From sequence record SRR20825019_3094: 20,000 nt of DNA; one strand, 5' to 3'. Position 1 is the first letter of the stretch. The number at the start of each line of letters is the position of its first letter. Both the position numbers and the translations under genes were made by a program. Positions 1 through 18,791 of this stretch are shown here, one piece after another. A model generated the notes under the pieces. It had not been told where the DNA came from. It made no database searches and saw only the letters and a list, made by a program, of their open reading frames with translations.

Positions 1-189
1 TCGCTCAGAACAGGCATTCTGTTCATCCCGGGCTGGGGATGGGTTGACTTCCCACTAACTGAAAGTGTGATAAAACCCGAGTCCATATCAACTCCTACTG
101 CACCATGCCAGAGTAGTCCTGGTCATCTTGTAGTTGCAACCATCTCTTTTAAATATCGCGATCATTGGCGTGCGTCAGTATTGCATCCA

Positions 190-1117
190 GTAGCGCCGGC
201 ACAGTTGGCATCCTCGGCCGGCGAAGCTCTGCTGAGCGCGGGTCGGAATCCGGGTCCAGCAAGCACACAGCAACGGCTTATCCACCAAGCTGAAAGAGTA
301 GAGGTGCTGGTCGGCTCCTCAGGGTTGAGTGGGCCTCGAGGTCCCACTCTCGCCTCACTGAGTCTCGGTCTGCGCGCAGGCGCGGCCAGGGCGCGGCGGT
401 GCTAATCCCGTGGCTTGGTGGCCGGGCCCCCCGGGTGGCGGCCCCAACGCCAGGGCGGACTGGGGACCGGGACAGTCCATCCGGCCGCGCACCACGACCG
501 CAAGCGCGACTCATCATCACTCACCAGGACTGGAGACAGGTTTGAATTCCCTGAAGGCACATACATAATGTACAAATGTCAACCGAAGATGTCTTTTGGC
601 GAGTGTGTATGAGAAACCATGCGGATCCTTACGGTTGTTCGTGGAAGCAGCGCATCGCGTCCGATACGACTCACGGCGTGCTCCGACCCCGGCGAGCAGG
701 GAGAAGCATTGTTGGGAGTGGTGACGACGTCTCTTGGGGGCGCCATCATGATGACCGTGCGCCGCCCCCCTCCCCTCTATCCGGCACCCCGTCGTCCCAT
801 CTCCGGGGGCCGTCAGTGGTCTCGTCACACTCAGTCTGACCAACAGGGGGGCGCGACGCGGACCGGGGGCCCGAAGTGTGGCCCGGTCGTGGGCAAGCGC
901 AGTCATGGCGGACGTCGCTTGCGTGTTGAGTGCCCTCTCGGGCTGGGTTGTTGGGTTGCCATGTTGGGTGGGGCCTGCAGGAATGCGGGCGGCGGTCGGG
1001 CCTGCCAGCCATGGGTGCCTGCGCGCTCCAGCCTGTGATCGCTGCTCTGTGATCGCTACCCCAAGCTAACTTACAAGTATTAGGACAAATACAACGAGAA
1101 AGTTTCGTACACATACA
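190..1117. promoter_or_regulatory. GC/CpG-rich upstream region of iPGM (probably a second divergent promoter)
   Basis: There is no credible ORF here. GC-rich blocks (~190-540 and ~620-1060) flank a more AT-rich core (~541-620), the same layout as 4911-5821. Confidence 0.45.
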
Positions 1118-2947
1118 ATGGCCGGAGAAAAGAAAGCTTGTTTGATTTGCATCGATGGATGGGGTCTTTCTGATAAGGCTCACGGAAACTCGATTATGGC
1201 TGCGAAAACACCCGTGATGGACTCTTTTAAGAAAGATCATCAGTTTGCGCGTGTTGACGCGAGTGGCCTGTCTGTTGGCCTTCCGGAGGGAGGTGTGTAT
1301 CAAATTTGTGGTTACACATTGAACTTGCCTGTAGCTGACTTCTATATTTTTGCAGTTATGGGCAACAGTGAGGTGGGTCACTTGACCATTGGTGCTGGTC
1401 AGTGCGAATACCAAGATTTGGTCCGTATAAATCTTGCTCTTGAGGATGGCAGCTTTTTCAAGAATGAAGTCCTTCTCAACGCGTTCAAACGTGCAAAGGA
1501 AGGCAACGGCCGCTTCCACCTTCTTGGTCTCCTTTCTGACGGCGGTGTCCACAGGTATAACACTTCTATGTACCAGTAAATGATTGTGTACTGAGCATTT
1601 TGTAGTCACCAGAAGCACCTTTATGCCTTGTTGAAGGCAGCCAAGGAGAATGGTGTGCCGCAGGCTTATGTGCAGGCCTTCATGGATGGCCGAGATACTC
1701 CTCCCACAAGCGGTGCCGGATACATGCAGCAGCTCCTTGACGTGATCTCCGAGCTTGGCTATGGTAAGGTGGGCACGATTGGTGGGCGCTACTATGCCAT
1801 GGACCGCGACAAGAGATGGGATCGGGTAAAACTTGGATATGAGGGCATTGTTGCGGGAATCGGTGAGGAGAACTCCGACCCTATTGCAGCGATTAAGGCC
1901 CGATATGAAGCTGGAGAGAATGATGAATTCCTGAAGCCCATCATTGTCGACAAGGAGGGATGCGTCAAGGATGGAGACACCTGCCTTTTCTTTGACTTCC
2001 GCGCCGATCGCATGCGTGAGGTATGCATGCAGATTGCTGATTTCTTCATGTCTTACTATGTTTCAGATTGTCGAAACTATGGGCATTAAGCCTCCTTTCA
2101 AAACTGATCATATCCGCAAGGATGTAAAGGTGGTCTGCTACACCCAGTACAAATCCGAGTTCCCTCTGGATGTCGTGTTCCCTCCCCAGCAGTTGAAGAA
2201 TGGCCTTGCGGAATGGATTTCGAAGAAGGTAATTTGCAAGTGTTGCAATTCATGAATTTATATTGATGCACTTGTAGGGTCTGAAGCAATTTCATACAGC
2301 GGAAACTGAAAAGTATGCCCACGTCACGTTCTTCTTCAATGGGGGGCGTGAGGATGCCTTTGAAAACGAGGACCGTGAAATGGTACCTTCGCCCCAGGTG
2401 GCAACTTATGATCTTAAGCCCGAGATGAACGCTGCTGGAGTCGCAGAATCAGTATGTAGGGCTATGGACAAGCAAGAATACGCACTGGTGATGTGCAATT
2501 TTGCTCCCCCGGATATGGTTGGCCATACTGGATCCTACGAACAGTGCATTGTTGCTTGTGAGGCTACTGACAAAGCAATTGGTGAGATCTTTGAGGGTTG
2601 CAAGAAGAATGGGTACCAGGTATGCAATGATTTACTCCACTTTTGCGTAGATCTAACTGAGGTGTGATGCAGCTGTTCATAACATCTGATCATGGAAATG
2701 CTGAGGCTATGATCGATGACAACAACAACCCCATCACAAAGCATTCTACCAATTTTGTTCCTTTCATTATGGCCAATTCTGAGCACAAATTTAATCGCGG
2801 TGAAGGTACGCTGTACGCATGGACATAATTGAATGTGGCTAATCTTGATTTGGTTGCGTAGGCACTGTTCGCGATGTTGCGCCAACCATTTTGGCCACTA
2901 TGGGTATTGAGCCTCCCTCCGAAATGACCGGCCAATCATTTGTATAA
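1118..2947 (+). CDS. gpmI: 2,3-bisphosphoglycerate-independent phosphoglycerate mutase (iPGM), 7 exons, ~503 aa
   Basis: Exons 1118-1292, 1356-1554, 1606-2020, 2067-2228, 2278-2619, 2673-2805, 2862-2947 (1512 nt, in frame, TAA at 2945-2947). Splicing restores the iPGM motifs IDGWG, GLPEGVMGNSEVGH (catalytic Ser), SDGGVHSH, DGRDT, GRYYAMDRDKRWDR, DFRADR, AETEKYAHVTFFFNGG, NFAPPDMVGHTG, TSDHGNAE and DVAPTIL...EMTG. Confidence 0.97.
1293..2861 (+). other. Six spliceosomal GT-AG introns of the iPGM gene: 1293-1355 (63 nt), 1555-1605 (51), 2021-2066 (46), 2229-2277 (49), 2620-2672 (53), 2806-2861 (56)
   Basis: Donors GTGTGT, GTATAA, GTATGC, GTAATT, GTATGC, GTACGC; acceptors YAG; branch-like GCTGAC, ACTGAG, CTAAC, GCTAAT. 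Each removal rejoins a conserved iPGM motif in frame. Confidence 0.93.
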
Positions 2948-2962
2948 AACCTTGGCCTGATT

Positions 2963-4910
2963 TCACAATAGCGCTGCTCGCGAAATACAAACCATATGTA
3001 CATTCCTTTCGTCTCTTAGACTTGCATGTATGGAAGGAGCGACACGTTGCCATTGTAGCTTTGTGCTGTATCGTTCCGAGTTCAACAGCTCGAAGAACTT
3101 ACGTTCATGACCACGTATCTTGAATGTTAGGATGGCTACGCACTTGGAGCCGCCATTTCCGACAATCAAGTCTTGAAGAGTCTGAAGGAGAGCGGGGTAA
3201 ACCTCTGGAGCGTATAAGAGGTCGGCTCCTAAGACCACATCCGCCCTCACGCCCTGAGAAGATGAGCATCCCCACTCAAGTGCCTGTGTTGAAACCTGCC
3301 CGCACAGGCCGTTCTTGACAATGTTTTGTCTTGCCAAATCAAGTATTGTTGGGCCATCTGGCAGTTCCAGCTCCAAATCTGTAAGCAGCACGCTCGAAGC
3401 ACCATGTAGCGATGCCGAGAGGCCCGCTAACCCTGGACCACAGCCAAGTTCCAGAACCCTCTTTTGACTTATGGCAATGTCCCCAAGCGAATCGATTCCA
3501 GTCCTGATGGATCCACTCTCCATTGTTTCAGTCAAAACTTCTGCTGCCTCCCATATAACCGCCCCAACATTCACCGGTTCAAATTCTACGCCTTGTTTCA
3601 GACACAAATATCTGGTTCCTACCCTGAATACTCTTTCTCGCCACATCCTGGTCTCCTTCGCCGGATATCCGCGGATTTTCAGATCTCTTTCATTTCCGTA
3701 CATGCCACTTTGAACTATCTCACGGGCAACGTTCAACCATTCAAGATCATCCTCCGCCAACTTCCAATACTTTGCTTCAGTAGAGAAGGCGCATTCATGC
3801 CTTCAGTCAATGTTAGCTACGGAAATAGAGGCCGATGCCGCAAATATGAATACCTGTGTATAAAATGTCTGCAAATCATGTGCAAAGCAGGGACCTTAGT
3901 TGTAATAGAAGTCCTGTCGATGTAGTCATGGACGGGTTGACTCCAATGTTCAAGTACTGGAGGTGCACTGGCCAAGCTACGAAGTATTGACACGTCACGA
4001 CCATACATTAGATGCAACTCTGCCAAAGACATTCTATTGACACCTTGCTCAGCCATCTTCATATTCATTTTGTGGGGAATGTACATACATGGCAATTACA
4101 TCAGGAAATCCACGAGCTTCCCGGTCCATCGAGAAGGAAAGGCCTTCAGAAACTAGGCGAAGGTGCCCCGGTGCTTTAGAGGCTCGGCTCCACGCAAGTA
4201 CACTGTGCACGAAGTATTCATGTGCAGTTGTACCGGATGCCGGTAAGCATGAAGTTGAATATCTAGCCATGCCCTGGAGCACCTTCCACATCGAAACATT
4301 GGAGAAAACAGTGTCTCCTACCCAACACTTGGAAATGTACTCTCCCCATGAAGTCGTCCATTCCCTCATGATGCATTGCTCCTCGGCGCAAAGTGCAGGT
4401 ACCGCGCCATCATTTTCCTCAAAGAACCCATTATCAGCCGCCATACATGGCAAGCTACCCTCGTCGTCCATCTGCTCAAGACACCCATACGAAAAGCACT
4501 GAAGGCTTTGCCGGTTGTCACAACTCGACAAATCAGAACCTATACGAGCACAGTGGATTTCCACAAGCTGCCTTGTCAGTTTCAAAAGGAGTTCTTTCCT
4601 ATGTCCTCGAGTTTCAGGCGAGCCCAGGAATTTTTCTCTGCACTGAGCACACCCAAGCATGGTTCGATTCAAAACCTGTTTCAACACTTTCTCCGCTTGG
4701 AAACCATCAGGAGGCCCTGACGGCAAGCCACCATTGACTTCCCGTGGTCGCTTTCCACACAGCCTGTCTTTAACAATATGTTACACTCTCAGGAGTTCTA
4801 AGCAGAATATCAACAAGGCTACCTTGCAAACTCTTGGGCAAGGAAATTACCAGGATGTCATCATCTTGCCGCCTTTGAGTTGTCCTCGCAAGCGAAGTGC
4901 ATGAGTCCAT
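2963..4910 (-). CDS. Class I SAM-dependent protein (lysine) methyltransferase, METTL21/EEF2KMT-like (Methyltransf_16), with long uncharacterised N-terminal region; 4 exons, ~594 aa
   Basis: The C-terminal exon has VGAVIWEAAEVL, motif I VLELGCGPGLAGL, post-I VLLTDL, QALEWG and motif II DVVLGADLLY (DxxY type). The track ORFs 4049-4726, 3817-4095 and 2963-3760 join in frame through introns 4088-4034 (55 nt, GTATGT...GCTGAG...TAG) and 3853-3801 (53 nt, GTATTC...GCTAAC...AAG). The first exon 4910-4823 and intron 4822-4768 (55 nt, GTAGCC...GTAAC...AAG) are less certain. Confidence 0.8.
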
Positions 4911-5821
4911 ACTGACCTTTCTTCAATAGTAGAACTTAGTTAAACTTGTCCGTTGTTGCTTGAAGAACTCTGAAGCAGGCCGCCAATGCTCCGCATTCGG
5001 CTCACTGACGAGCCGGTAGCGCCTCGAGGCGGAGTCGACGGCGGGCACACTGGCATTCTGAACGGCCGCGACCCGCTGCGCTGCCAGGCAAAGCGGCCTG
5101 AGCCGAGTGCCGCAGGGCTGGAGTTAGCTTGACGAGCGGCCGGGCCCGGCCGGCGGCCCGCCGGGTCGCCCGTGGTTTGGTCCAGGGTGTCAATGGTCCA
5201 TACATGATAGTTGATCACCTTTCACATCCTCACATTCGGCCAGCCGTCACAGTCAGATAACGGTGAATCAAAACTCCGACTAAACTCCAAATATATACGG
5301 GAATACTATTCAAGATATTGCGGTTTATATTGGGGTTTCGATGCGATCGATGGCTGACGTCCCGACAGTACGACTGCCTTCTCGATTCGAGCCCGCCCGG
5401 TCGCCGTGACCTGACCCCGCGACTCCTCGATCCGGAGGGCCGGTGGTGGCCCCGATCGGCGTGCGGGTGCCCCCCCGCTCGCCCGCTGCCGCTGCCCGCC
5501 GGGCCCTGCGTGTGTGAAGTCGACCAATGATCACGCCAAAAACCCCCTCGGAGTCATTCCAGGGCCAAACCAATTGGTCTGACTCCGTGGGGCCGCACAC
5601 AAGCCACCTTCGAATACGGGTTGCGACGGGAGACCGCGGGGCTCCCCAACCTGACAGGTGAGCCCCGAACGGGCCGAGCGCCTCGCACATTCGCTCTGGT
5701 CAACCCTATCCAATATCCCAAGCCTGGCACTACACCCGCTACATGTTTTTCCGCATAGCTTGAAATATGGCAAGAACCACTATTTGCTTTCTTTGGTGGT
5801 ACAAGGCTGAGCAGGGCTGCC
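4911..5821. promoter_or_regulatory. Divergent promoter region between the methyltransferase and multi-bromodomain genes
   Basis: The genes are head to head. GC/CpG-rich blocks (~4975-5190 and ~5340-5700) flank an AT-rich core (~5265-5340) that carries TATATA (+, 5292-5297) and TATAAA (-, 5329-5324). Confidence 0.6.
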
Positions 5822-8800
5822 ATGGATGGCCCATTTGCCTGGCTAAGGTTGGGTCTACCAAGTCGTGCTCAATATGCTCCTCAGCTGTTCGACGAGGTGT
5901 ATTATCTGAAGCATGCTCATCTTCAGCAAATTAACCGATTCAATGACAACCCCAAAGATGCCCACGAAGAGGATGTGGTTGAGTGCATTGTTGTTGACAT
6001 CAAGTATGTAAAGGAAGGGGACGACAGTCATGTCCATTGCAAAGTTCGACTCTTGCCTGTGAGGGGTGGATCCACTTTCGCGGTGCGATATCACGACAGT
6101 GACACCGAATTCCTTGTTTTGAAGAAGGCTTATGAACGAGCTTTGTCTATGGATTTGGCTGTGGGAGTTCCCGTTCAGATGTTTTGGGCTGATGCAGAAG
6201 AGGGGAAGGGCAACTTTTACCTTGGTAAACTGACCGAAGTTAAAGAGAACTGGAAGGTGGAAATGTGTAATGCGGTGAAAGTACTATGGGACGGTCCGGA
6301 CGGAGAGGAAACTGAGGCAAGCCCATGGGAGCTTTTCCCTCCGGGTGAATCCCTCTCCCCACTGGATCCCAGCGATGATCCGGCAGTTTTGGCGGCATGT
6401 GATAAAGTGGCTAGGTGGATTAGCAAGGACTTGAAGCAGAAAGCGAAGAAGTTTGAGATCTTCATCCAGGATCCAGCAGCACAGTTAGCAGGCTTTGTAG
6501 ACGTTGTTCCAAGACCAATGTATTTGGACTTAGTCTATCGAAGGTGCAAGTCAATCTTTTATCGTCACCCTGAAGCTCTTCGGCGAGATTTGGAAAGTAT
6601 TGCGAAGGGAAGTGCAGAATTCAACAAGAGATCAGGACAACCAGAGTTTGTGAAGATTGCCGATCAGTTTGGTGCAGCGGTGTCCACACTAATGAACTCA
6701 GTCTCGGATCAACTTTTTGACGAGACTAGAGCTCTTGCAACTGAGGCCCCCACTCTTGTTGACAAGTTGGGACTCGCTGAGGGAGGGAGCCTTTTCATGC
6801 AGCCTGTCAACTTAGAAGAGCATCCGAACTACACTGAGGTTATTGAAAATCCAATGGACTTGGCCACTGTCAGCGCACTGTTGATGCGAAAAAAGTATCG
6901 GACATTAGATTCTCTCTACAGTGACCTGCGCTTGATATATAACAATGCTCTCACTTACAATGCAGTTGGTACCGGAGTCTATAGATATGCCGAGAAAGGC
7001 CTTGCGAAGCTGGAGCGTGACATTGCGAAGCTGGACGCCAAGGTAATTGGTCGTGGGGCATCCCTCCGGACTCCAAGGGCTCCGCGACCTTCCTTAGTTA
7101 TGAAGTTGAAGCCGCCTTCATCCGAACGAGAAAGTACTGATGATACTGCCGAAGCACCTGAGAGTTCGAAAGGAAAGCCTGGACGACCACCAAAGCCTCG
7201 AGATGAGGAGTCCCCTGCACCAAAGAAGCCAGGCAGGCCGCCGAAGACACCGATAACTCCTAACAGTGACAATGAATCTGCGGTGTCATCGAAAAAAGGG
7301 AAAACATTGCTTAAAATCAGAGCGACTAGCCGAGCAAACGTCGTGCCGGCAGGGTCAGAGTCACAAGTTAACATTCAAATATACCGCAAAATCTTGGACC
7401 AACTGAACATTACCGATGATAAGAAGTGGTTTGCATCACCTGTTGACGTGATTGGATTGAAGCTTAAGGACTACTATGATATTATCAAGGTTCCCATGGA
7501 TCTTGGCACGGTGAAGGTATGTCTTATTGCAAGAGTATTGGTAACGACCCGCCGCTAATGTGAAGCAACCAGGACCGGTTGGAGAAGGGTGTCTATAAAT
7601 CCAACGAAGCCGTTGATTCGGATATCCGTCTGACCTTTGGGAATGCCATGAAGTATAATTCATCGCAGAATGCAGTCCACATCAAAGCAAAGGAGCTGCT
7701 AGAATCATTTGAGTTAATGAGGTCGAAACTGGTCGGTTCTGGCGTCAAGGCCGAAGAGGAACCTATGGCGGAACCAACCACTCCGGCTAGTGCAAGGCGT
7801 AGTTCTATTTCGGTTTCTGCGTCGAGCAGGGAGGACAGTTGGTATGAGCACTGCAGGAATATTCTTAATACCTTGTCGAGACACCCGCGGTCAAAGAATT
7901 TCAAAGTGCCTGTGACGGACGAGATTGCTCCCAACTACTCACAAACAATCAAAGAGCCCATGGACCTCGGCACGCTGAGAGAAATGTTAGAAAGCAGAAA
8001 CATAGGTTCAAAGGAAGAGTTTCATCGGCTGGCCACTCTCATCTTCACAAACTGCATCGCATATAATGGAAGGCATGCACCAATCGCTGATGATGCCAAC
8101 CGTCTCTTTGAGATTTTCAACAAGAATTACCGCGCTAAGTTTGGCGCTGGTGATCAGAGCGATGCTGGAAGTGCTTCTAATGTAACACAGGAGACACGTG
8201 GAACTGGCTTTGTGGCTCAAGGGAGTTCTTCTGGACCTAGGGAGACTCCGCCTAAAGCTAAAGACTGGAGAGCAGTGTGTCACACAATTATTGAAGAGAT
8301 GATGCGAGACAGAAACATGGAAATGTTCTGGAAGACTGACCCGGAACGTGATGGGCTTGTCAACTATCGAGAGGTCGTTACTAGGCCGATGGACTTGGAG
8401 ACAGTCCAGAAGCATCTGAAAAAGAAAATCAAGTCAATGGATGAGTTTGTGGAGAAGGTCCTTCTTATATTTGAAAATGCTTTCACCTATCACGGCACAG
8501 CGTCGCAGATCGGCCGTTTGGCCAATGAATGTTTGCTTGTGTTCTATCGTCTAGCGGATGAAATGTCTGTGTCGCATCGCAAGGTGAACGTCTCCGGTTT
8601 TCCTAAGACTCAAGCTTCTATGGCTGCCTCATCTACCCAGGGGCCTTCTCCGGATGTGCGCGGACAGGATTGGCGCAAGGTAGCACTGAAGATTATTGAC
8701 CGCCTCTTTCGTGATGAGGAGTGCAGGGCCACTTTCTCGGCCCCGGTTGACGCTGAAGCTTTGGGTATTCCTCATTATCGGACCATGATCCAGAGACCTA

Positions 8801-11800
8801 TGGACCTCGGTACCATCAAGACTCGGCTTCAGTCCAAGGGTGAGATTGCTTCACCCTCCGAGTTTATTGAGTTGGTCAACCTGACCTTCCAGAATTGCAT
8901 TACATTCAACGGCCTGTCCTCACCCTACGGAAACATGGCTACAAGGCTGCAAGGTGTCTTTAGTACTTTGTTGTCTGACTTGGGTTTCTCGTTTGCTGAT
9001 CAGGAATCTTCGATGGTATCCAAGATTTCTGCTCCAAGAACACCGGCTCCTACGGCGGCTCCCACGCCATCGAGCGGGAAGGGGCGGAAGAAGAGTGATT
9101 GGTTTCACAAGGCTTCGAGCATTCTCTCGAAGTTGCAACAAGAGCAACATGCAGAATTTTTTAATGAACCGGTGGACCCAGTCAAGATGGGTATTCCTGA
9201 TTATTTCAATGTGATATCTAACCCGATGGACTTGGGTACTGTCGCGAGGAAACTGGCCGCCAAGGATTATTCTCTGCCACAAGAGTTTAAGGCGGACATT
9301 TTGCTTGTGTTCGAGAATGCAACGACATACAATTCTCCGGAATCGTTGGTGCACAACGCGGCGAATAGCTTGAAGAAAAAGTTCTTTCGAGCCTACGATG
9401 ATGACGATATGGCCTCACGAGTAGCTGTGAATTCTAGTGAAGCACCTGTGACCCCGGCACAGAAGCCTCCGAAGGCAACATTTGTTCTGAAAGGGCCAAG
9501 AACACCTGCAACCGCTACAGCGAAAGCCGCTGTTACCCCGACTTGGAAAGCTGCTGCCCTTGATGTCCTTCAGAAGCTGAAGAAAAAGGAGAACCACCAC
9601 TTCTTTGCCAATCCTGTAAACCCAGAACTAGATGGGGCGCCCGACTACTTTGAGAGAATAGAGACGCCTATGAGCTTAAGTGAGGTGGAAAAGAGACTTA
9701 TGGAAGGGACTATTAAGTCTGCCGATGAATTCACGACGTGGGTGTCCTTAGTTTTTGACAATGCTGTTCAGTATAATGGTCCTAATCACCTTGTCGGATC
9801 GGCTGCTTTAAAGTTGAAGGGAGATTTCACCAAGCTATTCAAGCAGCGTCTGTCAGAAGCTACTGCGTTCCCTTCTACTCCGCCTGCCGCGCTCGAACGA
9901 AAGCAGTCGACTGGCTTGTCGGTCTCGTCCTTGAAGAAGGAAAAGCCACCCCTTGCCCAGTCATCCAACGAATGGGTCCGGCATGCTAAGGGTATGATTG
10001 CACAATTCTTAAAGAAGGAGAAGGATGGGCACTGGTTTTCTCGACCTGTGGATCCTGTCAAGGACGGAGTCCCCGAGTACTTCAGTGTTATCACGGAACC
10101 CATGGATCTGGGCACCATCGACGCGATGCTGAAGAAGGGAGAAATTAGTGGTCATGAAGAGTTTGCACGCTTGGTCCGTCTCACATTTGAAAACTGCATC
10201 AAGTTTAATACACTCAATGATTATGTTGGAAAGACAGCCGATATATATTTGAAGAAGTTCGAGAATATGTATGCTCACTTCGTCCGCAACATGAAAGAAG
10301 GTACCCTAAAAAAGAAGCCCGGGCGACCACCGTTGGAGCCGGGTGCTATGAAAACACCTGGGCGGCCCCGTGGGTTCCCTGAGGCGCCACAAACTGCCCC
10401 GCAAATGCGAGGGCGACCGCGAACTACGGGTTCTTGGCATGCAGGAGCTCGATTGATATTGCAACATTTGAAGGCAAAGGACACTATGTCCATATTCGCG
10501 CAACCTGTAGATCCCGTCGCTCTGAACATCCCAGATTATCCAAATGTTGTAAAGGATCCAATGGATCTTGGTACTGTCGAGTCTTTGGTTGGGTCTGGAA
10601 AATGCGACAACCCTGAAGAATTTGCCCGTCTGATCCGCTTAACCTTTGACAACTGCATTTTGTTCAATGGAGATAACGAGATTGGGCGCTTTGCTGTTGA
10701 CATGAAATCTGACTTTGAGGTTTTATACAAAAAGAAGATTGAAGGGCTTCTTGGTTCGACAATGGCCAAGCCTCCTACTGCTCCCGGTGCAGAATGGATT
10801 GCTGTAGCCAAAGAAATTTTGAAGAAGATCAAGAACGATAAGAAATCTGATGAGTTCCAACGCGATATCAACCAGGTCAAGGCAACCTGTCCGCAATATG
10901 ATGATGTCGTGAAAGAGCCGATGGACTTAGTCATCATTGGGCGCCACCTGAATACTGGGCGAATTAAGGATATGGAGGAGTTCTGTCGCCTGATGAAGCT
11001 GACCTTCCTGAACAGCATTAAGTACCACACCCTGAATGCAGATATCAGCCAAGATGCTGTAGTTTGCTTGATCAAATTCGTAGAAGAAGTTCGAAAGATT
11101 ACTGGCAAGAAAGACAATGATTGGCGAGAGAAGGCTTTTGGTATTCTTCATTTTATGCTTGATATTGACCCTGACGAACACTTCACTGTTGATCCACTTA
11201 CTTTCAATCTTGAGGGCTATGCTGACATGATCAAGGAGCCGATGTCGCTCAGTTGGATTCAACGAGAACTTGCCGATGGGGGCCAAATTCAAGACTCGGA
11301 TGAGTTTAACCGGTGCATGCACTTGGTGTTCATCAATTGCATTACCTACCATGGTCGTGACTCCGACTTTGGAAACCTTGCATATCATATGAAAAGATTC
11401 TATGAGTCGTTGAGGAAGAAAAGAAAGCTAGAGGTTTCGTCGGCGGCTGAAGTCCCCTCAGTAGATCTCGCTGTCAAATCTAGTCTTGGTGATGGGGCAT
11501 CTCCAGGTGCTAAGTGGCTACTTTGCCCTGCGGAAGACAATTGGAAGGAAGGGGCGCGCCGGCTTCTCCTGAAAATTCTCTCCGAGGTCCATGGACCCAT
11601 GTTCTTCTACCATGTTCCAGATTTGATTCCGGAGTACTCCCAGAAGATCAAGGAACCCATGGACTTCTTCACTATCCAGTCAATGTTTGCTTCGGGGTCT
11701 ATTGCATCCCCGGAAGAATTCAAACGACTGGGCAGCCTGTGCTTCGACAATTGTGTGGAATTTAATTCTAACAATGAGGACATCGTAGTCATTGCACGAG

Positions 11801-14469
11801 AGTTCAAGAAACAATTTGACGAACTGTACTCAACGTGGGTACTGCAGCCAGAGTCCTTGGTAAAGCATGAGACTAGTTGGTTGGGGCCCGCACGGAAGAT
11901 TCTTCAGTCTCTATCGCGGCACCCTTGCGCGCACTGGTACAATGTTCCCGTCGATTATGTGCAGCTAGGGCTCACACATTACCCCGTGATGATTAAGAAC
12001 CCTATGGATCTTGGAACGGTGGGTGAGATGGTGAAGAACAAAAGGATTGGGACTCGCGAAGAGTTTGCTTGCCTCGTCCGCTTGGTTTTCACCAATGCCA
12101 TGGTGTTCAACAAGCCTGAACACGATGTATACAAGGTGTCAGATAGTCTTTATCAAAAGTTTAATGAGGCTTTTGAGGAGAAGTTAAGCGCTGCTGCTAT
12201 AGCGCAGAGCAAATTGAACCGGCTGGACGACGAAGGAAGGAAGGAGCAACGCCGTCATAGATCCAATTCGGTCATTAGCATTGAGTGCGAGTTTGATGGT
12301 TGGCAGGACAAGGCTATCGAGATGCTTGACAAGCTTAAAGACAACCAAATCGCTGATGTGTACTCAAAACCTGTGGATACATCGGCACCTAGGATGCACA
12401 ACTACTTGCAAGAGGTTCATGAACCAATGGATCTGGGGCAAATAACAAGCGATTTGCAAGCAGGCTCTATCAGTTCTTACAGTGAATTTAAGCGCCGGGT
12501 GAGGCTAGTGTTTGATAATTCTATTCTCTTCCACGGAATGAATTCAGTGTATGGCACTCTGGCATTTACACTGTTGAACAAATTTGAGGATTTGCATGAG
12601 GAACTGTTGATAGCTCAAGGCTTGAAGAAACCTCCCGAGGATGTTGAAGCCATCCAGAGTCAGAAACAGAGTCAAAAGCGGGGTGCGCGTGTTCGGTTTG
12701 GGCGTGTTATATCGCAGCTGCTTCGGGGCCCTGGCGGTAAACTGTTTGCCATACCGGTTGACCCCGAAAAGCACGGATGCAGTGACTACTTAGAAATTAT
12801 CAAAAAGCCTATGGACTTTGGTACCATTGAGCAAATGGTGGATGACGGAAAGATTGAATCCCAGACCGAGTTCAATGACCTTGTTGAACTAACCCTCACT
12901 AATTGTCTTTTTTACAATGGAGATAGCGAGAATGGGTTGCATATTAGCGAGTATGCCCTGAAGTCGTTCAAAACTTGGGAGGAAACAGATCCCCAGAGGG
13001 CGAACCGCATGTCGAAAATCCGGATGCAATGTGCTGCGCGAATCAAGCGCCGTATGGCTGAACATCAGCGAATGAAACGCGAAGAAGCTGGCCGCGATGT
13101 GGCTGTTGACGATGTTGCCGATGAAGATGACGTTCCCCTGGCCCGGGTTAATCTTGCTTCCAAGGCTAAGGACATATCGAAGAATTTGATGAAAAAGTGT
13201 GCTGAGATTGTATCGTATCTTAACAAGGCGGATCAGAGGCATGGACTCTTGTCGAAGGGGGTGGGCTTGGTTGTCGGGCTACAAGAGATCCAACGACGTC
13301 TTCGCAATCAGTTGTACAGCGTTCACAGCGATTTCGCATTGGATGTGTCCACGCTTTTCCGGGGCGTTCTGGCGGCAGTTCCTAGCAAGAGTAGTATCAT
13401 TATGGAGATGTTCAGTGACTTCAACAAGATGTATCGCCCCATCGTTGAGCAAGATCGTTTGGTCCAGCTGGAAGAGATGACGTTAAGATTAGAAACCAAG
13501 AAGCGCGTCCATGAAGATGAAAAGCCCAAGGTTGACGTCTCGAAAGACGTGGAAAACGTCCTAGCCAAGAAGGACCCCAAGAAGTCCAAGTATAGTGTTC
13601 CCCAAGAAATTGACACAAATCGCTCGAGCAAGTTTTCGATGTCCTTTAAGAAGCGCTCACCCTCACGGTTAGGTGGAAAGGTTTTGGTTGAGCCAAGTCC
13701 AAAGAGGTTGCGTGCGTTTGAGGAAGATGAAGCTGACGACGAGATGGAACTCGACGTTCCTCCTGAGTACATTCGTTGGGAGGAGAAGGCAATTCACTCT
13801 GCAAGAGCGGCGCCCAAGATAGCTCCTGCGTTTGTTGACCCGGTGTCGCTCTTGACAGCCAATGGCGAGAAGAAAGACTCCAGGGTTGTCACTTTTGGTT
13901 TCCCTGTCAAGGTCCCTGAATTCCGTCGCGAGGCATATGCCCTTGCTAAAGGCCATTGGAAGAAGATGTTTGGACCATGCCCAAGCGGGCATCTCCTGTC
14001 CCATGATGTCGACATATTTCGAAAGAAGGACAATGCTGACCTGCTTCCTTGCCAGCTTATGATGTACACTCTTAGGGTGATGTGCCCAGAAGGGAACTGG
14101 AATCGAGGCAAGGTTGCGGTGTCGGTGACGAAGGATGAGTCCTTTGATGACCTGGAAACTAGCCTTGCGAGTCTCCTCAGCGATGTTGAAGAGTTGAAGA
14201 ACTACGATGACGAGGGTGACGAAGCCCTGACAATGATGTATGAACCAGCTCGTGTTAAGTCCATTTTGGACTCGTATTCTGATCTCTTGTCCGAAAATTT
14301 CCATTACCACCCCCAAGGCTTCTATCTTTCAACGAAGACAGAGCACCGGGGTGGACTGACTTTCCTAACTTTGAAAGTGCTCGGCCTGGAGGGAACCCTC
14401 TCGGTAAGCTATGACGAGTGGACAGTACCCTTAGTTGGACCTGTGCAGTCGTGTATTCCGTCCCGCTAA
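5822..14469 (+). CDS. Giant multi-bromodomain protein with N-terminal PHIP/BRWD-like cryptic Tudor region; 2 exons, ~2863 aa
   Basis: Exons 5822-7516 and 7573-14469 are joined by a 56-nt intron (GTATGT...GCTAAT...CAG) that restores PMDLGTVK|DRLEKGVY inside bromodomain 3. There are 16 repeats of the F..PV...Y...I..PMDL..I...L......F......L.F.N...[YF][NH] bromodomain signature. The N-terminal YAPQLFDEVYY..AH / RYHD..EFLVL / V.WD...SPWEL motifs resemble the BRWD/PHIP region preceding the bromodomains. Confidence 0.93.
6400..13440 (+). repeat. Tandem array of 16 bromodomains plus one degenerate copy (protein-level repeat)
   Basis: The cores in order are PMYLD, PMDLA, PMDLG, PMDLG, PMDLE, PMDLG, PMDLG, PMSLS, PMDLG, PMDLG, PMDLV, PMSLS, PMDFF, PMDLG, PMDLG and PMDFG. 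A degenerate unit (GLQEIQRRLRNQLY..HSDFALDV..LF) lies at about 13190-13435. Confidence 0.9.
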
Positions 14470-14473
14470 GCCT

Positions 14474-14529
14474 AATAAATCCTTGTTGTACTTGAATTGA
14501 AACCATTTGAGTATCATGTCATTTTTATT
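14474..14529. terminator. Pair of opposed AATAAA polyadenylation signals in the 62-nt convergent spacer
   Basis: AATAAA on + at 14474-14479 begins 4 nt after the bromodomain stop. AATAAA on - at 14529-14524 begins 2 nt after the EGF gene stop. Confidence 0.6.
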
Positions 14530-14531
14530 GA

Positions 14532-17500
14532 TTACTTGGCTGCAGTCTCCTTACGGAGGTTGCCAGCAATGAGTGTCCCACAGTTGTCTCCGGTCCATGC
14601 CGAGTCACAGGTGCACTGACCAAAGTGGCAATGGCCATGTCCACTGCAATCGTTTGGACAAAACTCTGAGGCGCAGTCGAGCCCGGCCCAACCATTGAAG
14701 CAACTGCATTCTCCCAGAGTGCAAGTGCCATGCCCCGAGCACGGGTTGTCCTCCCCACCAGGGCACGCTACCTTACCACAATCAGCCCCATAATATCCCT
14801 TAGAGCAATGGCATATTCCATCCACGCAAGTTCCACGACCCGTGCAGCCATGGAGGCAGTTGTGCACCGAACAATCATGGCCGCCAAACCCAGGCTCACA
14901 AACGCATACACCATCCAAGCACTTCCCGCGATTTGAACACTTGTTCATACACACCTCACCTCCACAGTCAGTGCCTGTGAAGCCGGCATAGCACTGACAT
15001 ATTCCGTCTTCAAGACACTTTCCGTGTCCCATGCATCCATGCAAACAAAGGCGCTTCGAGCAATCATCGCCTTCGAAACCTTCGTCGCATTCGCACTCGC
15101 CCGATACGCACGTACCATGTCCCGAACACCTATTCCGGCACAGGTTGACCCGTGTCCAGCAGTCCGCTCCGGTATATCCTACATGGCAATGGCACACTCC
15201 TTCAACGCATTTGCCGTGTCCATGGCAATTACTACGGCAAAGGTCGGACAAGACGCTGCAACTGGCTCCCGTATAGCCACTATGACATTCGCATATGCCA
15301 TCAGTGCAGACACCATGCCCGGAGCAATTCTTCCGACAAAGATCCGCAAGCGTGGCACAGCTAGCCCCAGTGTAACCCTCAACACAATGACAGATTCCAT
15401 TGTGGCAGGCACCATGGCCAGTGCAGTTGTTTCGGCACAAGGATGCTTCCTTCCAACAGTCTGAACCAGTGAATCCGTCTTCACAATAGCAAATACCCCC
15501 AACACATTGACCGTGCCCGCTGCAGTTATTCCGGCATGCGCGTACTTCTGAGAAGCAGTCGGTACCTGTGAACCCGTCCATGCAGTAACAGACGCCTCGG
15601 TCGCACTTTCCATGGCCGTGGCAGTTGTTGCGGCAAAGATTAGCCTCAACAGAGCAGTCAGCGCTAGTGTAGCCGTCCTTGCAATGGCACACACCATTGT
15701 CGCATACACCATTACCAGAGCAGTTGTTGCGACACAGATTGCTGAGCATCATGCAATCCGCTCCAACGTAGCCCTGAATGCAGTGACACACCCCCGCCCG
15801 ACAAAGACCGTGGCCGGAGCAATTGTTTCGACATTCATCTTCAAGCACGGAGCAGTCATCACCCTCAAAGCCGCGGATGCAGTGACACACACCCTGGTTG
15901 CATCGTCCATGCCCACTACAGTCATTCCGGCACAGATTGGCCAAAACCTTGCAGTCGTCACCTTCATACCCGTTGTTACAGTGGCAGACTCCTCGGTAGC
16001 AGTCACCGTGACCACTACAATTGTTGCGGCAGAGGTTGGACATAGTGGCACAGTCATCACCCTGATAACCATCCTTACAGTGGCACACTCCACGGATACA
16101 GTGCCCGTGGCCCGAGCATCCTCGTCGGCACAAATTAACCTGAACTCTGCAATCATCGCCCTCAAACCCAGCGAAGCAATGGCAAACCCGCCCTTGGCAG
16201 AGACCATGCCCTGAACAGTTTGTGCGGCAAAGATCGGCAAGAGTGGCGCAGTCGTCGCCTTCAAACCCTTCTACACAGTGACAGACACCCTCATGGCAAG
16301 CACCATGCCCACTGCAATTGTTGCGGCACAAATCAACCATAACCTCGCAATCATCGCCCTCAAACCCTTCCTCGCAGTGACACACACCATCGACACATGT
16401 TCCGTGATCGGAGCAGTTCTTGCGGCAGAGGTCTGCGCGAATGGCGCAATCATCGCCCTGGAAGCCATCCTCACAATGGCAGACACCGTCAATGCAGTCA
16501 CCGTGTTGGCTGCATTCATTACGGCAGAGATTAACAAGAATCTCGCAATCGTCACCTTCGTAGCCTTCCTCACAATGGCATACTCCAGGATCGACACATT
16601 GCCCGTGACCACTGCAGTTGCCCCGGCACAAGTCGGCAATGGCCCAACAGTCCTCGCCGAAGTAGCCATCATGACAGTGACATACGCTGTCAACACAAGT
16701 GCCGTGACCGTTGCAGTCACTAGGGCAGTCCTTCACTCCACAGTCCGCCCCCGAGAAGCCGCGGAAGCAATGGCAAGTACCTCCAAGATCACAAAAACCA
16801 TTGAAGTAACACTCGTGAGGGCAAGTTTCAAGCTGGCATTGCTGGCCCTTGTATCCTGGGTAGCAATGGCATCTGCCGCGGTAGCAGAATCCCTTCTGGG
16901 AACAGTCGGCAGGGCACGGAATCGGAACCGAGCAGTCGTTGCCTGTGAATCCTTCCTCGCACTCGCACTTTCCGTTGACGCAAACCCCGCGGTAGCTGCA
17001 CGCAGGGGTGCACACTTGATCACTGCATGTGGGGCCGACAAATCCGCGCTCACACTCACAGGACCCCTTGTTGCATTCGCCGTGGCCGGAGCAGTTATTG
17101 CTGCACACCAAACAATCCTCGATGCACACCTTGGTTGCTTTTGGGTCTTCCATGTGATGCAGAGCACACATTGACACGCATGTCTTGTTAGCAATTTCCA
17201 TTCCATGCATCCACGAAAATCCTCCAGGAAGAATGGGCCATTTGTTTGCTCGAGCCGTGCGGACACAGTTCTTACTGCAAAGATCCGCAGCCACGGTGTC
17301 GTGAGGATGAGCCCAGGCACAAGAGAACACGCAAGTGCGCGACTGCACTTGAGATGGAAGCATTTCAACAGCCACAACCTTACCCTTGCCATCTGTGCTT
17401 GGTTGCGATATTACAGTCTGCTGTGTGTCGTAGCAATCAACTCCTCCAAAACCGTCATTACATTTGCACTTTGTGTCACGGCAGAGGCCATTTCCACTAC

Positions 17501-18791
17501 AATCATTCTCACATACTGTGCTGTTACAGGTGTCTCCTCCAAAACCATATTCACAGAAGCATTGTCCCCACATGCACTGCCCATGAGATGAACAGGTGGG
17601 ATCGACGCAAGAGGCTACTTGTGAACAATCAATCCCCCTAAACTCCGGTTTGCAGTGGCACGTTCCTCCCCAGCACGCGCCATTATTGGGACCACTGCAG
17701 TCGTTTGGGCACAGAACGACATCACAGGCGTTGCCAGAATATCCATCGTCACAATGGCACAAACCGTCGCTGACACAAACGCCGTGCCCTCCACAGTTGC
17801 TTGGACACTTCGCCTTTCGGGAACAATCCCTTCCGCCGTATCCTGCCGCGCACAGACACTCGCCATTCTCCCGGCACACACCATTGTTCGAGCAGTCATT
17901 AATGCAAGCAACGGATTCACAGAACGCTCCCCGGAACCCATGTTCGCATATGCACATGCTGTTATGGCACACACCGTGACCAGAGCAGTGTGAACCGCAG
18001 TCACTAGTAATTGGTCGCTCACAGTTAAAACCTCCCCAGCCCTCTACACAAGAGCAGTGGCCTTGCACGCAGCTACCATGCCCGGAGCAACCACCCGAGC
18101 ATTCCAGAAGGGTGCAAGTGGCCCCAGAGTAACCTGGCTGACAAACACAGCCATGAGAAGTGCATGTTCCAAACTCCCCGCACCCCTCCGCAGGGCATGC
18201 ATCTAAAGAGCAGTCCACACCAGCCCAACCAGACTCGCAATCACAGCTGTGAGTCACAGCATTACAGTCACCGTGCCCGCTGCATTCATTAGGACAAAGT
18301 AACAGGTTGCAAAGAGAGCCTGTCCATCCTTGATCGCAGTAACACTGCCCCCCCACACAAATTCCATGGGCCAAACACTCTGTTGGGCACGCAGACCCGG
18401 GCTCTTGAGTTATTGAGTGTGGTGTCGCAACCGGAAGTACGATAGGGGCATCCTCTGTCACAGATTCCGTGGGTGCTATCTCGTGAGGTCTTTCTTCCAT
18501 ATTGGCTATAGAGTTTAGCATGGTTGCCTGACTGTGAACTCGTTCCTTCTTATTCTTCTTTGGTTCTCCGGCCCATCCTTTCTCAAGACCGTGAACAGCT
18601 GCGGTATGCGAGTGTTCCGCCTTCGAAATATGCCGCTTAGAAGGATTGGAGTGCCTCACCAGCGTGGCCTCTGATACGACCAGCTTGGTCATCGACTCCT
18701 CATGACTATTGGTGGACTGACCAATGACGATGAGTGACAACAAAACCAGAATCACCCCGGCCACGCCAGAATAGACTGAAGACGCCGCCAT
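14532..18791 (-). CDS. Secreted tenascin-type EGF-repeat protein (36 EGF-like repeats), intronless, ~1419 aa
   Basis: The first ATG is at 18791 (the track start at 18824 is TTG) and is followed by a signal-peptide-like hydrophobic stretch (GVAGVILVLLSLIVIG). Repeats follow C-x3-C-SGHG-x-C-x4-C-x-C-x2-G[FYW]xGxDC, with 10 in 18389-17433 and 26 in 17105-14580. No C-terminal TM helix, FNIII domain or fibrinogen domain is visible. Confidence 0.93.
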   Translation of the reverse strand: MAASSVYSGVAGVILVLLSLIVIGQSTNSHEESMTKLVVSEATLVRHSNPSKRHISKAEHSHTAAVHGLEKGWAGEPKKNKKERVHSQATMLNSIANMEERPHEIAPTESVTEDAPIVLPVATPHSITQEPGSACPTECLAHGICVGGQCYCDQGWTGSLCNLLLCPNECSGHGDCNAVTHSCDCESGWAGVDCSLDACPAEGCGEFGTCTSHGCVCQPGYSGATCTLLECSGGCSGHGSCVQGHCSCVEGWGGFNCERPITSDCGSHCSGHGVCHNSMCICEHGFRGAFCESVACINDCSNNGVCRENGECLCAAGYGGRDCSRKAKCPSNCGGHGVCVSDGLCHCDDGYSGNACDVVLCPNDCSGPNNGACWGGTCHCKPEFRGIDCSQVASCVDPTCSSHGQCMWGQCFCEYGFGGDTCNSTVCENDCSGNGLCRDTKCKCNDGFGGVDCYDTQQTVISQPSTDGKGKVVAVEMLPSQVQSRTCVFSCAWAHPHDTVAADLCSKNCVRTARANKWPILPGGFSWMHGMEIANKTCVSMCALHHMEDPKATKVCIEDCLVCSNNCSGHGECNKGSCECERGFVGPTCSDQVCTPACSYRGVCVNGKCECEEGFTGNDCSVPIPCPADCSQKGFCYRGRCHCYPGYKGQQCQLETCPHECYFNGFCDLGGTCHCFRGFSGADCGVKDCPSDCNGHGTCVDSVCHCHDGYFGEDCWAIADLCRGNCSGHGQCVDPGVCHCEEGYEGDDCEILVNLCRNECSQHGDCIDGVCHCEDGFQGDDCAIRADLCRKNCSDHGTCVDGVCHCEEGFEGDDCEVMVDLCRNNCSGHGACHEGVCHCVEGFEGDDCATLADLCRTNCSGHGLCQGRVCHCFAGFEGDDCRVQVNLCRRGCSGHGHCIRGVCHCKDGYQGDDCATMSNLCRNNCSGHGDCYRGVCHCNNGYEGDDCKVLANLCRNDCSGHGRCNQGVCHCIRGFEGDDCSVLEDECRNNCSGHGLCRAGVCHCIQGYVGADCMMLSNLCRNNCSGNGVCDNGVCHCKDGYTSADCSVEANLCRNNCHGHGKCDRGVCYCMDGFTGTDCFSEVRACRNNCSGHGQCVGGICYCEDGFTGSDCWKEASLCRNNCTGHGACHNGICHCVEGYTGASCATLADLCRKNCSGHGVCTDGICECHSGYTGASCSVLSDLCRSNCHGHGKCVEGVCHCHVGYTGADCWTRVNLCRNRCSGHGTCVSGECECDEGFEGDDCSKRLCLHGCMGHGKCLEDGICQCYAGFTGTDCGGEVCMNKCSNRGKCLDGVCVCEPGFGGHDCSVHNCLHGCTGRGTCVDGICHCSKGYYGADCGKVACPGGEDNPCSGHGTCTLGECSCFNGWAGLDCASEFCPNDCSGHGHCHFGQCTCDSAWTGDNCGTLIAGNLRKETAAK
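15057..16643 (-). repeat. Homogeneous 99-nt (33-aa) tandem sub-array of 16 EGF units (consensus xxxNLCRNNCSGHGxCxxGVCHCxxGFxGDDCx)
   Basis: 1587 nt = 16 x 33 aa + 1 aa. At DNA level gcagtcgtc/gcaatcatcgccctcaaacc and gcagttgttgcggca recur at ~99-nt spacing on the + strand. Confidence 0.9.

What the first reader, a model, noticed from the sequence alone, without database searches (positions are those of the whole stretch)
5834..6630. PHIP/BRWD cryptic-Tudor + BD1 module without the WD40 propeller
Seen: WL....P....YAPQLFDEVYYLKHAH...F.VRYHD..EFLVL...FW...FYLG...VKVLWD...SPWEL, then a divergent bromodomain PMYLDLVYRRCKSIFYR. An in-frame TAG lies at 5756-5758, and only ~900 nt of GC-rich DNA separates the ATG from the neighbouring gene, too little to encode a WD40 propeller. 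Established: PHIP/BRWD1/BRWD3 consist of WD40 (DDB1-CUL4 adaptor), a cryptic Tudor domain (H3K4 methyl reader) and two bromodomains. Inference: this is a BRWD derivative that lost the E3-adaptor part, kept a possible H3K4me reader and massively amplified its acetyl readers.
Basis: partly seen in the sequence, partly recalled or inferred. Interest (0 to 1): 0.78.

Follow-up and report, generated by a model that had tools for sequence, protein, structure and literature searches.

The report
WD40-less cryptic-Tudor protein with 16 bromodomains
This gene of an unidentified microbial eukaryote encodes a giant predicted chromatin reader that joins the methyl-lysine-reading "cryptic Tudor" domain of the PHIP/BRWD family to sixteen acetyl-lysine-reading bromodomains, and it lacks the ubiquitin-ligase adaptor part found in named BRWD proteins.

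Summary
A two-exon gene (ATG 5822, predicted 56-nt intron 7517-7572, stop 14467-14469) encodes about 2863 aa. Residues 1-176 are a true homologue of the PHIP/BRWD cryptic double Tudor. They score 81.5 bits (E 3e-24) against a profile of 13 BRWD cTudor segments, against 7.5 bits for the best of 1000 shuffles. The alignment-based AlphaFold model (pLDDT 87.7) matches only ARF DNA-binding-domain scaffolds at Z 12.2-13.2. PMC11685440 shows that this scaffold descends from the PHIP cTudor. Sixteen full bromodomains follow, 12 of them with the acetyl-lysine Asn. There is no WD40. The upstream 912 nt end at the cDNA 5' end of a divergent gene at 4910, and none of its 12 plus-strand ORFs hits WD40. One is that the gene is a BRWD that lost its propeller, rather than a shuffled cTudor-bromodomain cassette. 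The other is that the array grew from BRWD's own bromodomains; profile scores point elsewhere. No orthologue was found. The function as a multivalent methyl/acetyl chromatin reader is inferred. I rate it a new variant of a known kind, of moderate interest.

The parts
4911..5821 (.). Intergenic gap, putative bidirectional promoter and 5' UTR. It is GC-rich and has no WD40-coding potential.
   Evidence: The cDNA 5' end of the minus-strand neighbour lies at 4910 (loose end carrying a template-switch-oligo-like tail). GC is 0.589 for 5001-6000. Of 12 plus-strand ORFs of at least 30 aa, 0 hit WD40 or any family above threshold.
5756..5758 (+). In-frame TAG upstream of the start codon
5822..14469 (+). 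Whole coding region: exon 1 5822-7516, predicted intron 7517-7572, exon 2 7573-14469 including the stop. About 2863 aa.
   Evidence: ORFs. The GT..AG intron is read from the sequence. The spliced product has no stop. cDNA contigs lie on part of bins 5337-7337 and on 11962-14497.
5822..6349 (+). Cryptic double Tudor (cTudor, equal to the ARF DD-AD scaffold without B3), aa 1-176. The first barrel is about aa 17-101 and the second (Tudor/AD) about aa 108-177.
   Evidence: AF2 pLDDT 87.7. Foldseek E 1e-7 to ARF DBDs. Z 12.2-13.2 over model 1-175. The two halves match EF-P/UHRF1-TTD-like and PHF1/SMN Tudor folds at Z 6-7.5.
6401..6718 (+). Bromodomain 1 (divergent: PMYL instead of PMDL; BC-loop Asn268 kept)
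   Evidence: Pfam 26.3 bits. 24.7 bits against a profile of 56 foreign bromodomains..
6737..7054 (+). Bromodomain 2
   Evidence: 67.8 bits
7169..7252 (+). Two GRP-core (AT-hook-like) motifs in the BD2-BD3 linker (aa 454, 471)
   Evidence: Regular-expression match only
7379..7752 (+). Bromodomain 3, split by the intron
   Evidence: The spliced domain scores 78.9 bits and 86.0 bits against the TAF2-type profile. Unspliced, the frame stops at 7556-7558.
7517..7572 (+). Predicted 56-nt GT..AG intron
   Evidence: Sequence. Neighbouring genes have verified 46-63-nt GT..AG introns. This intron itself is not covered by RNA contigs.
7843..13011 (+). Bromodomains 4-16 (13 domains). BD5, 11, 12 and 15 have His in place of the BC-loop Asn.
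   Evidence: 39.5-96.6 bits each
10321..10425 (+). Three GRP-core (AT-hook-like) motifs between BD9 and BD10 (aa 1482, 1495, 1512)
   Evidence: Regular-expression match only
13261..13455 (+). Weak bromodomain-like remnant (aa 2462-2526)
   Evidence: 6.9 bits, partial profile match. Not reported by Pfam.
13456..14466 (+). C-terminal region with no recognisable family
   Evidence: No Pfam family at E<=0.01. No homologue. No Atlas hit.

Best explanation
The gene encodes a nuclear, non-enzymatic, multivalent chromatin reader. It has an N-terminal PHIP/BRWD-type cryptic double Tudor, 16 bromodomains, five AT-hook-like GRP motifs and an unassigned C-terminal region. Shown: the domain content and the absence of a WD40 propeller in this gene. 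Inferred: the second Tudor barrel binds a methylated lysine, by analogy H3K4me, through a cage formed by W122, Y133, W156 and W169. Inferred: the 12 Asn-bearing bromodomains bind acetyl-lysines on the same and on neighbouring nucleosomes. Binding to methylated and hyperacetylated chromatin would then be strongly avidity-driven, as in PHIP's trivalent Tudor-BD1-BD2 reader but on a much larger scale. Without the WD40 and BRWD1_N part it cannot itself act as a DDB1-CUL4 substrate receptor. Any effector would have to be recruited through the C-terminal region or through partner proteins.
For: cTudor homology:
- phmmer hits to BRWD proteins that carry WD40, BRWD_AD and bromodomains, for example P0003 at E 4.8e-7 for a library of 1.84 billion proteins.
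- 81.5 bits, E 3e-24, against a profile of 13 BRWD cTudor segments, with 7.5 bits for the best of 1000 shuffles.
- The profile of A1 retrieves 16 proteins, of which 12 carry WD40 families and several are named BRWD1 or PH-interacting protein.
- The PDB profile search hits only ARF DBDs strongly, at E 2e-24 in two pieces flanking B3.
- AF2 model with pLDDT 87.7 and pTM 0.82. The top 14 Foldseek hits are all ARF DBDs. VIA Z is 12.2-13.2 with 143-164 residues aligned, and the next tier is at Z<=7.5.
- PMC11685440 (passages read) states that the ARF DD-AD derives from the PHIP cTudor.

Bromodomains: 16 full domains. The BC-loop residue is Asn in 12 and His in 4 (with BD2 read).

No WD40. The neighbour's cDNA 5' end is at 4910, and iPGAM and methyltransferase genes lie further upstream.

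Function by analogy: PHIP Tudor-BD1-BD2 binds H3K4me, H3K14ac and H4K12ac cooperatively, and W1081A abolishes methyl binding (PMC5710144 and PMC8653789, passages read).

Transcription: cDNA-like contigs lie on the 5' and 3' parts of the gene.
Against: - Pfam's curated BRWD_AD model (PF25313) does not report the window's domain at E<=10. Only ARF_AD appears, at 15.2 bits, below its cut-off of 27.
- The conserved PQxGD and QGH motifs are altered to PQLFDE and KHAH.
- The mapping of PHIP W1081 onto Y133 rests on spacing in a frog BRWD1-like protein, not on a human PHIP sequence.
- PMC11685440 reports that the homologous cage in ARFs is dispensable and blocked by a loop, so cage conservation does not prove reading.
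- No orthologue with this architecture was found, so purifying selection on the architecture is untested.
- The intron and the transcription start are not covered by RNA data.
- The AF2 model depends on an alignment of BRWD homologues, and ARF structures were probably in AlphaFold's training data (recalled).
Confidence: 0.7

Rival explanations
1. It is an ordinary BRWD/PHIP orthologue whose WD40 exons lie upstream and were missed, so the WD40-less architecture is a gene-model artefact.
For: The transcription start of the gene is not mapped. AG dinucleotides preceded by a T-rich stretch lie between the TAG and the ATG (sequence), so an acceptor there is conceivable. RNA cover of the 5' end is thin (depth 1 in bin 5337-6003).
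Against: Only 912 nt separate the ATG from the 5' end of a divergently transcribed gene at 4910. A propeller alone needs about 900-1000 nt (established knowledge). None of the 12 plus-strand ORFs there hits WD40. Further upstream lie a methyltransferase gene on the minus strand and an iPGAM gene. The first conserved cTudor residue (W7) sits 6 residues after the ATG. No contig joint enters the region from upstream (table 5).
Confidence: 0.05
2. The gene is not a degenerate BRWD. It is a poly-bromodomain protein of the kind seen in TAF2-fused and stand-alone forms, and it acquired a mobile cTudor(-bromodomain) cassette by domain shuffling. The WD40 was never part of this lineage.
For: Bromodomains 3-16 score higher against TAF2-type and oomycete-type poly-bromodomain profiles than against BRWD BD1 or BD2 profiles in 14 of 14 cases. 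The best whole-array hits are TAF2-poly-bromodomain proteins of early-diverging fungi, at 342 bits or less. The nearest named-source cTudor hit (P0002/P0031, from a Rhodomonas transcriptome) sits in a WD40-less protein with DNMT1-RFD, Tudor, Agenet, WSD and one bromodomain, so the cassette does move between architectures.
Against: Those profiles were built from more and more generic sequences, which inflates their scores. In the quick tree, 12 window bromodomains form a group beside BRWD BD2s, and BD2 falls beside the BRWD BD1 clade, with weak supports of 84-92 SH-aLRT. The order cTudor then bromodomain is the BRWD order.
Confidence: 0.35
3. The cTudor is only a structural or dimerising scaffold, as in ARFs, and reads no histone mark. 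Chromatin targeting would be done by the bromodomains and AT-hooks alone.
For: PMC11685440 (passages) reports that cage mutations in ARF ADs have no phenotype. The window's domain hits Pfam ARF_AD weakly but not BRWD_AD. Its core motifs are altered.
Against: All four cage-equivalent positions are aromatic (W122, Y133, W156, W169). There is no B3 insertion, and Pfam finds nothing ARF-specific.
Confidence: 0.25

Closest known systems
PHIP/BRWD2, BRWD1 and BRWD3 (DCAF14/19 family)
   Same: The cryptic double Tudor is followed directly by bromodomains. It aligns full-length to BRWD cTudors at 20-33% identity. The Tudor-then-bromodomain order is the same as in PHIP residues 940-1434 (PMC8653789).
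   Different: There is no BRWD1_N domain and no WD40 propeller, so no predicted CRL4 adaptor function. There are 16 bromodomains instead of 2. GRP motifs and a 340-aa unassigned C-terminus are present. Pfam BRWD_AD does not detect the domain.
Auxin response factor DNA-binding domain (DD-B3-AD; PDB 4ldx, 6ycq, 6sdg)
   Same: It is the only solved fold matching the whole 175-residue module (Z 12.2-13.2; E 2e-24 with the profile). Both halves align, on either side of the place where ARFs carry B3.
   Different: There is no B3, no PB1 and no middle region. A short loop replaces the B3 insertion. ARFs are reported as streptophyte-specific (PMC11685440).
Polybromo-1 (PBRM1, six bromodomains) and fungal or algal TAF2-poly-bromodomain fusions
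   Same: Long tandem bromodomain arrays. TAF2-type proteins are the best hits to the array.
   Different: The 12 relatives scanned have 3-9 bromodomains, against 16 here. No BAH or HMG (PBRM1, recalled) and no TAF2 domains were found. None of the 12 starts with a cTudor; only P0132 carries one, preceded by about 330 aa.
Rhodomonas abbreviata transcriptome protein P0031 (2253 aa)
   Same: A WD40-less protein with a cTudor followed by a bromodomain. Its second barrel is 37% identical over 87 residues.
   Different: It carries DNMT1-RFD, Tudor, Agenet and WSD domains and a single bromodomain. Its cTudor has an insertion of about 85 residues between the barrels.

Membership tests
PHIP/BRWD family | N-terminal BRWD1_N plus a 7-8-bladed WD40 propeller (DDB1-CUL4 adaptor) | tested here: not met
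   No WD40 or BRWD1_N family in either exon at E<=1. Of 12 upstream plus-strand ORFs, 0 hit WD40. Upstream DNA is occupied by other genes.
PHIP/BRWD family | Cryptic double Tudor (DD-AD-like) domain | tested here: met
   81.5 bits against a BRWD cTudor profile, with 7.5 bits for the best shuffle. Library hits. Fold.
PHIP/BRWD family | Match to the curated Pfam model BRWD_AD (PF25313) above its cut-off of 40 bits | tested here: not met
   Not reported at E<=10 for the window, while 12 of the 14 alignment members match it.
PHIP/BRWD family | Bromodomains directly C-terminal to the Tudor | tested here: met
   BD1 at aa 194-299 and BD2 at aa 306-411 follow the cTudor, which ends near aa 176. There are 16 in all, not 2.
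PHIP/BRWD family | Methyl-lysine cage including the residue equivalent to PHIP W1081 | tested here: inconclusive
   By alignment the equivalent is Y133, and W122, W156 and W169 are also aromatic. The mapping of W1081 is inferred from spacing in P0017. No binding data exist.
Auxin response factors | B3 DNA-binding domain inserted in the DD, plus a PB1 domain | tested here: not met
   No B3 or PB1. Query 20-80 and 80-174 align to ARF1 35-100 and 254-355 with nothing in between.
Bromodomain (PF00439) | Pfam match above the gathering score, and a conserved BC-loop Asn | tested here: met
   116.2 and 687.6 bits for the two exons. 16 full-length domains. Asn in 12 of 16 and His in 4.
Polybromo/PBRM1 | BAH domains and an HMG box after the bromodomain array (recalled) | tested here: not met
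   No such Pfam family at E<=1.
AT-hook | R-G-R-P core in a basic context that binds the minor groove | tested here: inconclusive
   Five GRP cores found by regular expression, of which one is RGRP and four are PGRP. No profile or binding test was done.

The most novel reading that the evidence does not exclude
The cTudor-bromodomain cassette is an independent, mobile chromatin-reading unit that predates or escapes the CRL4 adaptor context. In this lineage it heads a 16-bromodomain reader long enough to engage many acetylated tails over several nucleosomes at H3K4-methylated sites. Such a protein would scaffold or bridge hyperacetylated chromatin rather than target a ligase.
Probability: 0.3. 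Interest if true: 0.65.

Novelty: new variant of a known kind. Interest (0 to 1): 0.5.

Why it matters
PHIP/BRWD proteins are described as ubiquitin-ligase substrate receptors brought to chromatin by a Tudor-BD1-BD2 reader. It would be a natural test case for how far multivalent reading can be scaled. Together with the cryptophyte protein, it also adds WD40-less contexts to the history of the cTudor fold that plants later reused as the ARF DNA-binding scaffold. My searches for such an architecture in print listed none, but the library lacks most subscription journals. Of the supplementary tables of PMC11685440 I saw only the first part of one file.

Tried and rejected
- Single-sequence AlphaFold of aa 1-303 was useless (pLDDT 34).
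- No whole genome is held for the window. A separate canonical BRWD, DDB1 or CUL4 gene therefore could not be sought.
- C-terminal region: no homologue among 7996 scored candidates, no Atlas hit and no Pfam family.
- Metagenome contig scan with exon 1: 131 pattern matches, none confirmed.
- Earlier findings of this scan: three look-ups returned nothing.
- An Atlas search with the iPGAM fragment gave no usable taxonomy.
- Sequencing runs: no RNA holder is listed. The single holder, X1, is of unrecorded kind. Its contigs skip GT..AG introns and end in a template-switch-oligo-like tail (identified from recall), so I treated it as cDNA.
- X1 contigs leave 7338-11339 without cover, so the predicted intron at 7517-7572 is untested. 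No 5'-end tail was listed for this gene.
- P0001 (7637 aa) and P0004 (344 aa, Ig domains) were dropped as spurious, because they give only repeated short matches to query residues 35-103.
- The ARF hit P0012 was left out of alignments A1 and A2, and P0002 was left out of A2.
- The bromodomain tree has few columns (106). Only 5 of 69 inner branches are strongly supported, so it is a hint only.
- A term search in the supplements of PMC11685440 found none of my terms.
Full report
**Gene model**

The window is eukaryotic. cDNA-like contigs of run X1 skip GT..AG introns of 46-63 nt in the neighbouring genes.

The finding lies at the start of a long plus-strand gene. The ATG is at 5822, in the context GCCATGG, and an in-frame TAG lies at 5756-5758. 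The frame runs to 7516. Left unspliced, it stops at 7556-7558.

A GT..AG interval at 7517-7572 (56 nt) joins it in frame to the ORF that ends at 14469. The splice rebuilds a bromodomain: the spliced BD3 scores 78.9-86.0 bits. The product has 2863 residues and no internal stop.

X1 contigs lie on parts of 5337-7337 and on 11962-14497, so the gene is transcribed. They do not cover the intron or mark the transcription start.

**Surroundings**

- iPGAM gene, plus strand, with its cDNA 5' end at 1109.
- A minus-strand gene from about 2860 to 4910. It holds a Methyltransf_16 ORF and an upstream ORF joined by three introns.
- The 912-nt GC-rich gap, 4911-5821.
- The bromodomain gene.
- A convergent EGF/teneurin-like repeat gene at 14509-18882.

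The loose end at 4910 carries a tail that I recognise, from recall, as the template-switch oligo of SMART cDNA synthesis. That would mark the capped end of the neighbour's transcript. None of the 12 plus-strand ORFs of at least 30 aa in the gap matches WD40 or any other family above threshold. An upstream propeller is therefore practically excluded.

**The N-terminal module**

Sequence evidence:
- Pfam gives only a sub-threshold ARF_AD match (15.2 bits) and no BRWD_AD match.
- phmmer against PDB sequences hits ARF1 DNA-binding domains in two pieces: query 20-80 to ARF1 35-100, and query 80-174 to ARF1 254-355. These pieces lie on either side of the B3 insertion.
- phmmer of aa 1-185 against 1.84 billion representatives finds 16 proteins at E<=1e-3 and none below 1e-10.
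- Two of these are Ig-repeat artefacts and one is an ARF. The other 13 carry the cTudor in BRWD-type or bromodomain-bearing contexts, several with WD40 and BRWD1_N.
- A profile built from the window plus 13 hits retrieves proteins that their sources name BRWD1 or PH-interacting protein, from frog, ctenophore, ferns and flowering plants.
- A profile of 13 BRWD segments that excludes the window scores the window at 81.5 bits over nearly its full length. The best of 1000 shuffles scores 7.5 bits.

Structure evidence:
- With a 22-sequence alignment, AlphaFold2 gives a confident model (pLDDT 87.7, pTM 0.82).
- Its 14 best Foldseek matches are all ARF DNA-binding domains (E 1e-7 to 1e-5).
- VIA-align gives Z 12.2-13.2 with 143-164 residues aligned across model 1-175. 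The next tier is at Z<=7.5.
- In that tier the first half matches EF-P/UHRF1-TTD-like barrels and the second half matches PHF1, SMN, TDRD3 and PHF20 Tudor domains.
- The profile search found no chain with a PHIP cTudor sequence in the PDB copy.

PMC11685440 (passages read) reports that the ARF DD-AD scaffold is homologous to, and derived from, the PHIP cTudor, a double Tudor without B3. The ARF match is therefore the expected structural signature of a PHIP-type cTudor.

**Is the methyl-lysine cage kept?**

PHIP W1081A abolishes H3K4me binding (PMC5710144 and PMC8653789, passages). I hold no human PHIP sequence. I therefore used the spacing between the BD1 asparagine, the SPW tryptophan and the WWxG motif in the frog BRWD1-like protein P0017. 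From that spacing I infer that W1081 is the second W of WWxG, which aligns with Y133 of the window's NFYLG.

The other Tudor cage-equivalent positions are W122, W156 and the invariant W169. All four are aromatic, so reading is plausible. This is inference from alignment. In ARFs the homologous cage is reported to be dispensable.

**Bromodomains**

A profile of 56 bromodomains from other proteins finds 16 full-length domains (24.7-96.6 bits) and a weak partial seventeenth (6.9 bits). Pfam counts 3 stretches in exon 1 and 14 in exon 2, with BD3 split between the two.

| Feature | Result |
|---|---|
| BC-loop Asn | 12 of 16 domains |
| BC-loop His | BD5, BD11, BD12, BD15 |
| BD1 identity to the others | 13-24% (most divergent) |
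| BD3-16 pairwise identity | 19-39% |
| DNA-level repeats within the gene | none found |

Any amplification is therefore old.

In a quick tree, 12 of the 16 group together with one oomycete domain, beside BRWD BD2s. BD2 falls next to the BRWD BD1 clade. Support is weak throughout. Profile scores point the other way: BD3-16 all score higher against TAF2-type or oomycete-type poly-bromodomain profiles than against BRWD BD1 or BD2 profiles.

The best database matches to the array are TAF2-poly-bromodomain fusions of early-diverging fungi, at 342 bits or less. Twelve such relatives that I scanned have 3-9 bromodomains. PBRM1 has six (abstracts listed). Sixteen is the largest number I saw.

**Origin**

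The closest cTudor from a named source (P0002 and its cluster mate P0031, from a cryptophyte transcriptome) sits in a WD40-less protein with DNMT1-RFD, Tudor, Agenet, WSD and one bromodomain. The cTudor-bromodomain unit therefore occurs outside the CRL4-adaptor context.

Whether the window's gene is a BRWD that lost its N-terminal half, or a poly-bromodomain protein that gained the cassette, is open. I give the shuffling reading about one chance in three.

No orthologue of the whole architecture, or of the C-terminal 550 residues, was found. No genome is held for the window, so the presence of a canonical BRWD elsewhere in this organism is untested.

**Mechanism**

The most likely function is a multivalent chromatin reader or scaffold. 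This rests on analogy with PHIP's cooperative Tudor-BD1-BD2 binding and on the domain content shown here. The cTudor would supply methyl-lysine recognition. Twelve canonical bromodomains would supply acetyl-lysine avidity. Five GRP cores might add contacts with AT-rich DNA. The unassigned C-terminus would be the only candidate effector or partner surface.

The domain content is shown. All binding activities are inferred.

**Verdict**

This is a new variant of a known kind: a PHIP-type reader module without the ligase adaptor, with an exceptional bromodomain count. My literature searches listed no description of such a protein. The library lacks most subscription journals, and I saw only one part of one supplementary table of PMC11685440.

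Noticed in passing
window 14509-18882 (-): A 1430-aa ORF made of EGF/teneurin-like repeats with a 99-nt period (Pfam EGF_TEN 843 bits). It has the highest contig depth in X1 (132) and a cDNA 5' end at 18882. One contig joint skips 459 nt (16618 to 17078, no GT..AG) inside the repeats, which is probably a repeat-number variant or an assembly collapse.
   Followed up: partly
window 1109-2900 (+): A gene for 2,3-bisphosphoglycerate-independent phosphoglycerate mutase. Six GT..AG introns of 46-63 nt are all spliced out in an X1 contig, and the cDNA 5' end is at 1109.
   Followed up: partly
window 2860-4910 (-): The Methyltransf_16 (lysine methyltransferase) ORF at 2963-3802 and the family-less ORF at 4049-4780 are linked by contig joints (3799-3853, 4033-4089, 4767-4823). 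They are probably one gene, head-to-head with the bromodomain gene.
   Followed up: partly
window 1-1000 and 5000-5600: Both gaps between divergently transcribed genes are GC-rich islands (0.62 and 0.59, against about 0.48 elsewhere). This may be a feature of bidirectional promoters in this genome.
   Followed up: no
window 5766-5768: An out-of-frame upstream ATG, in a good context, lies 56 nt before the main ATG. No plus-strand ORF of 70 aa or more other than the main frame covers it.
   Followed up: no
window 7169-7252 and 10321-10425: Five GRP-core, AT-hook-like motifs lie in two inter-bromodomain linkers.
   Followed up: no
P0031 (Rhodomonas abbreviata transcriptome protein, 2253 aa): This WD40-less protein combines DNMT1-RFD, Tudor, Agenet, WSD, a cTudor with an inserted segment of about 85 residues, and one bromodomain. 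It is another undescribed context for the cTudor.
   Followed up: partly
P0041-P0078: TAF2 fused to 5-6 bromodomains is widespread in early-diverging fungi (Mucoromycota, chytrids). It also occurs in a green alga (Chloropicon).
   Followed up: no
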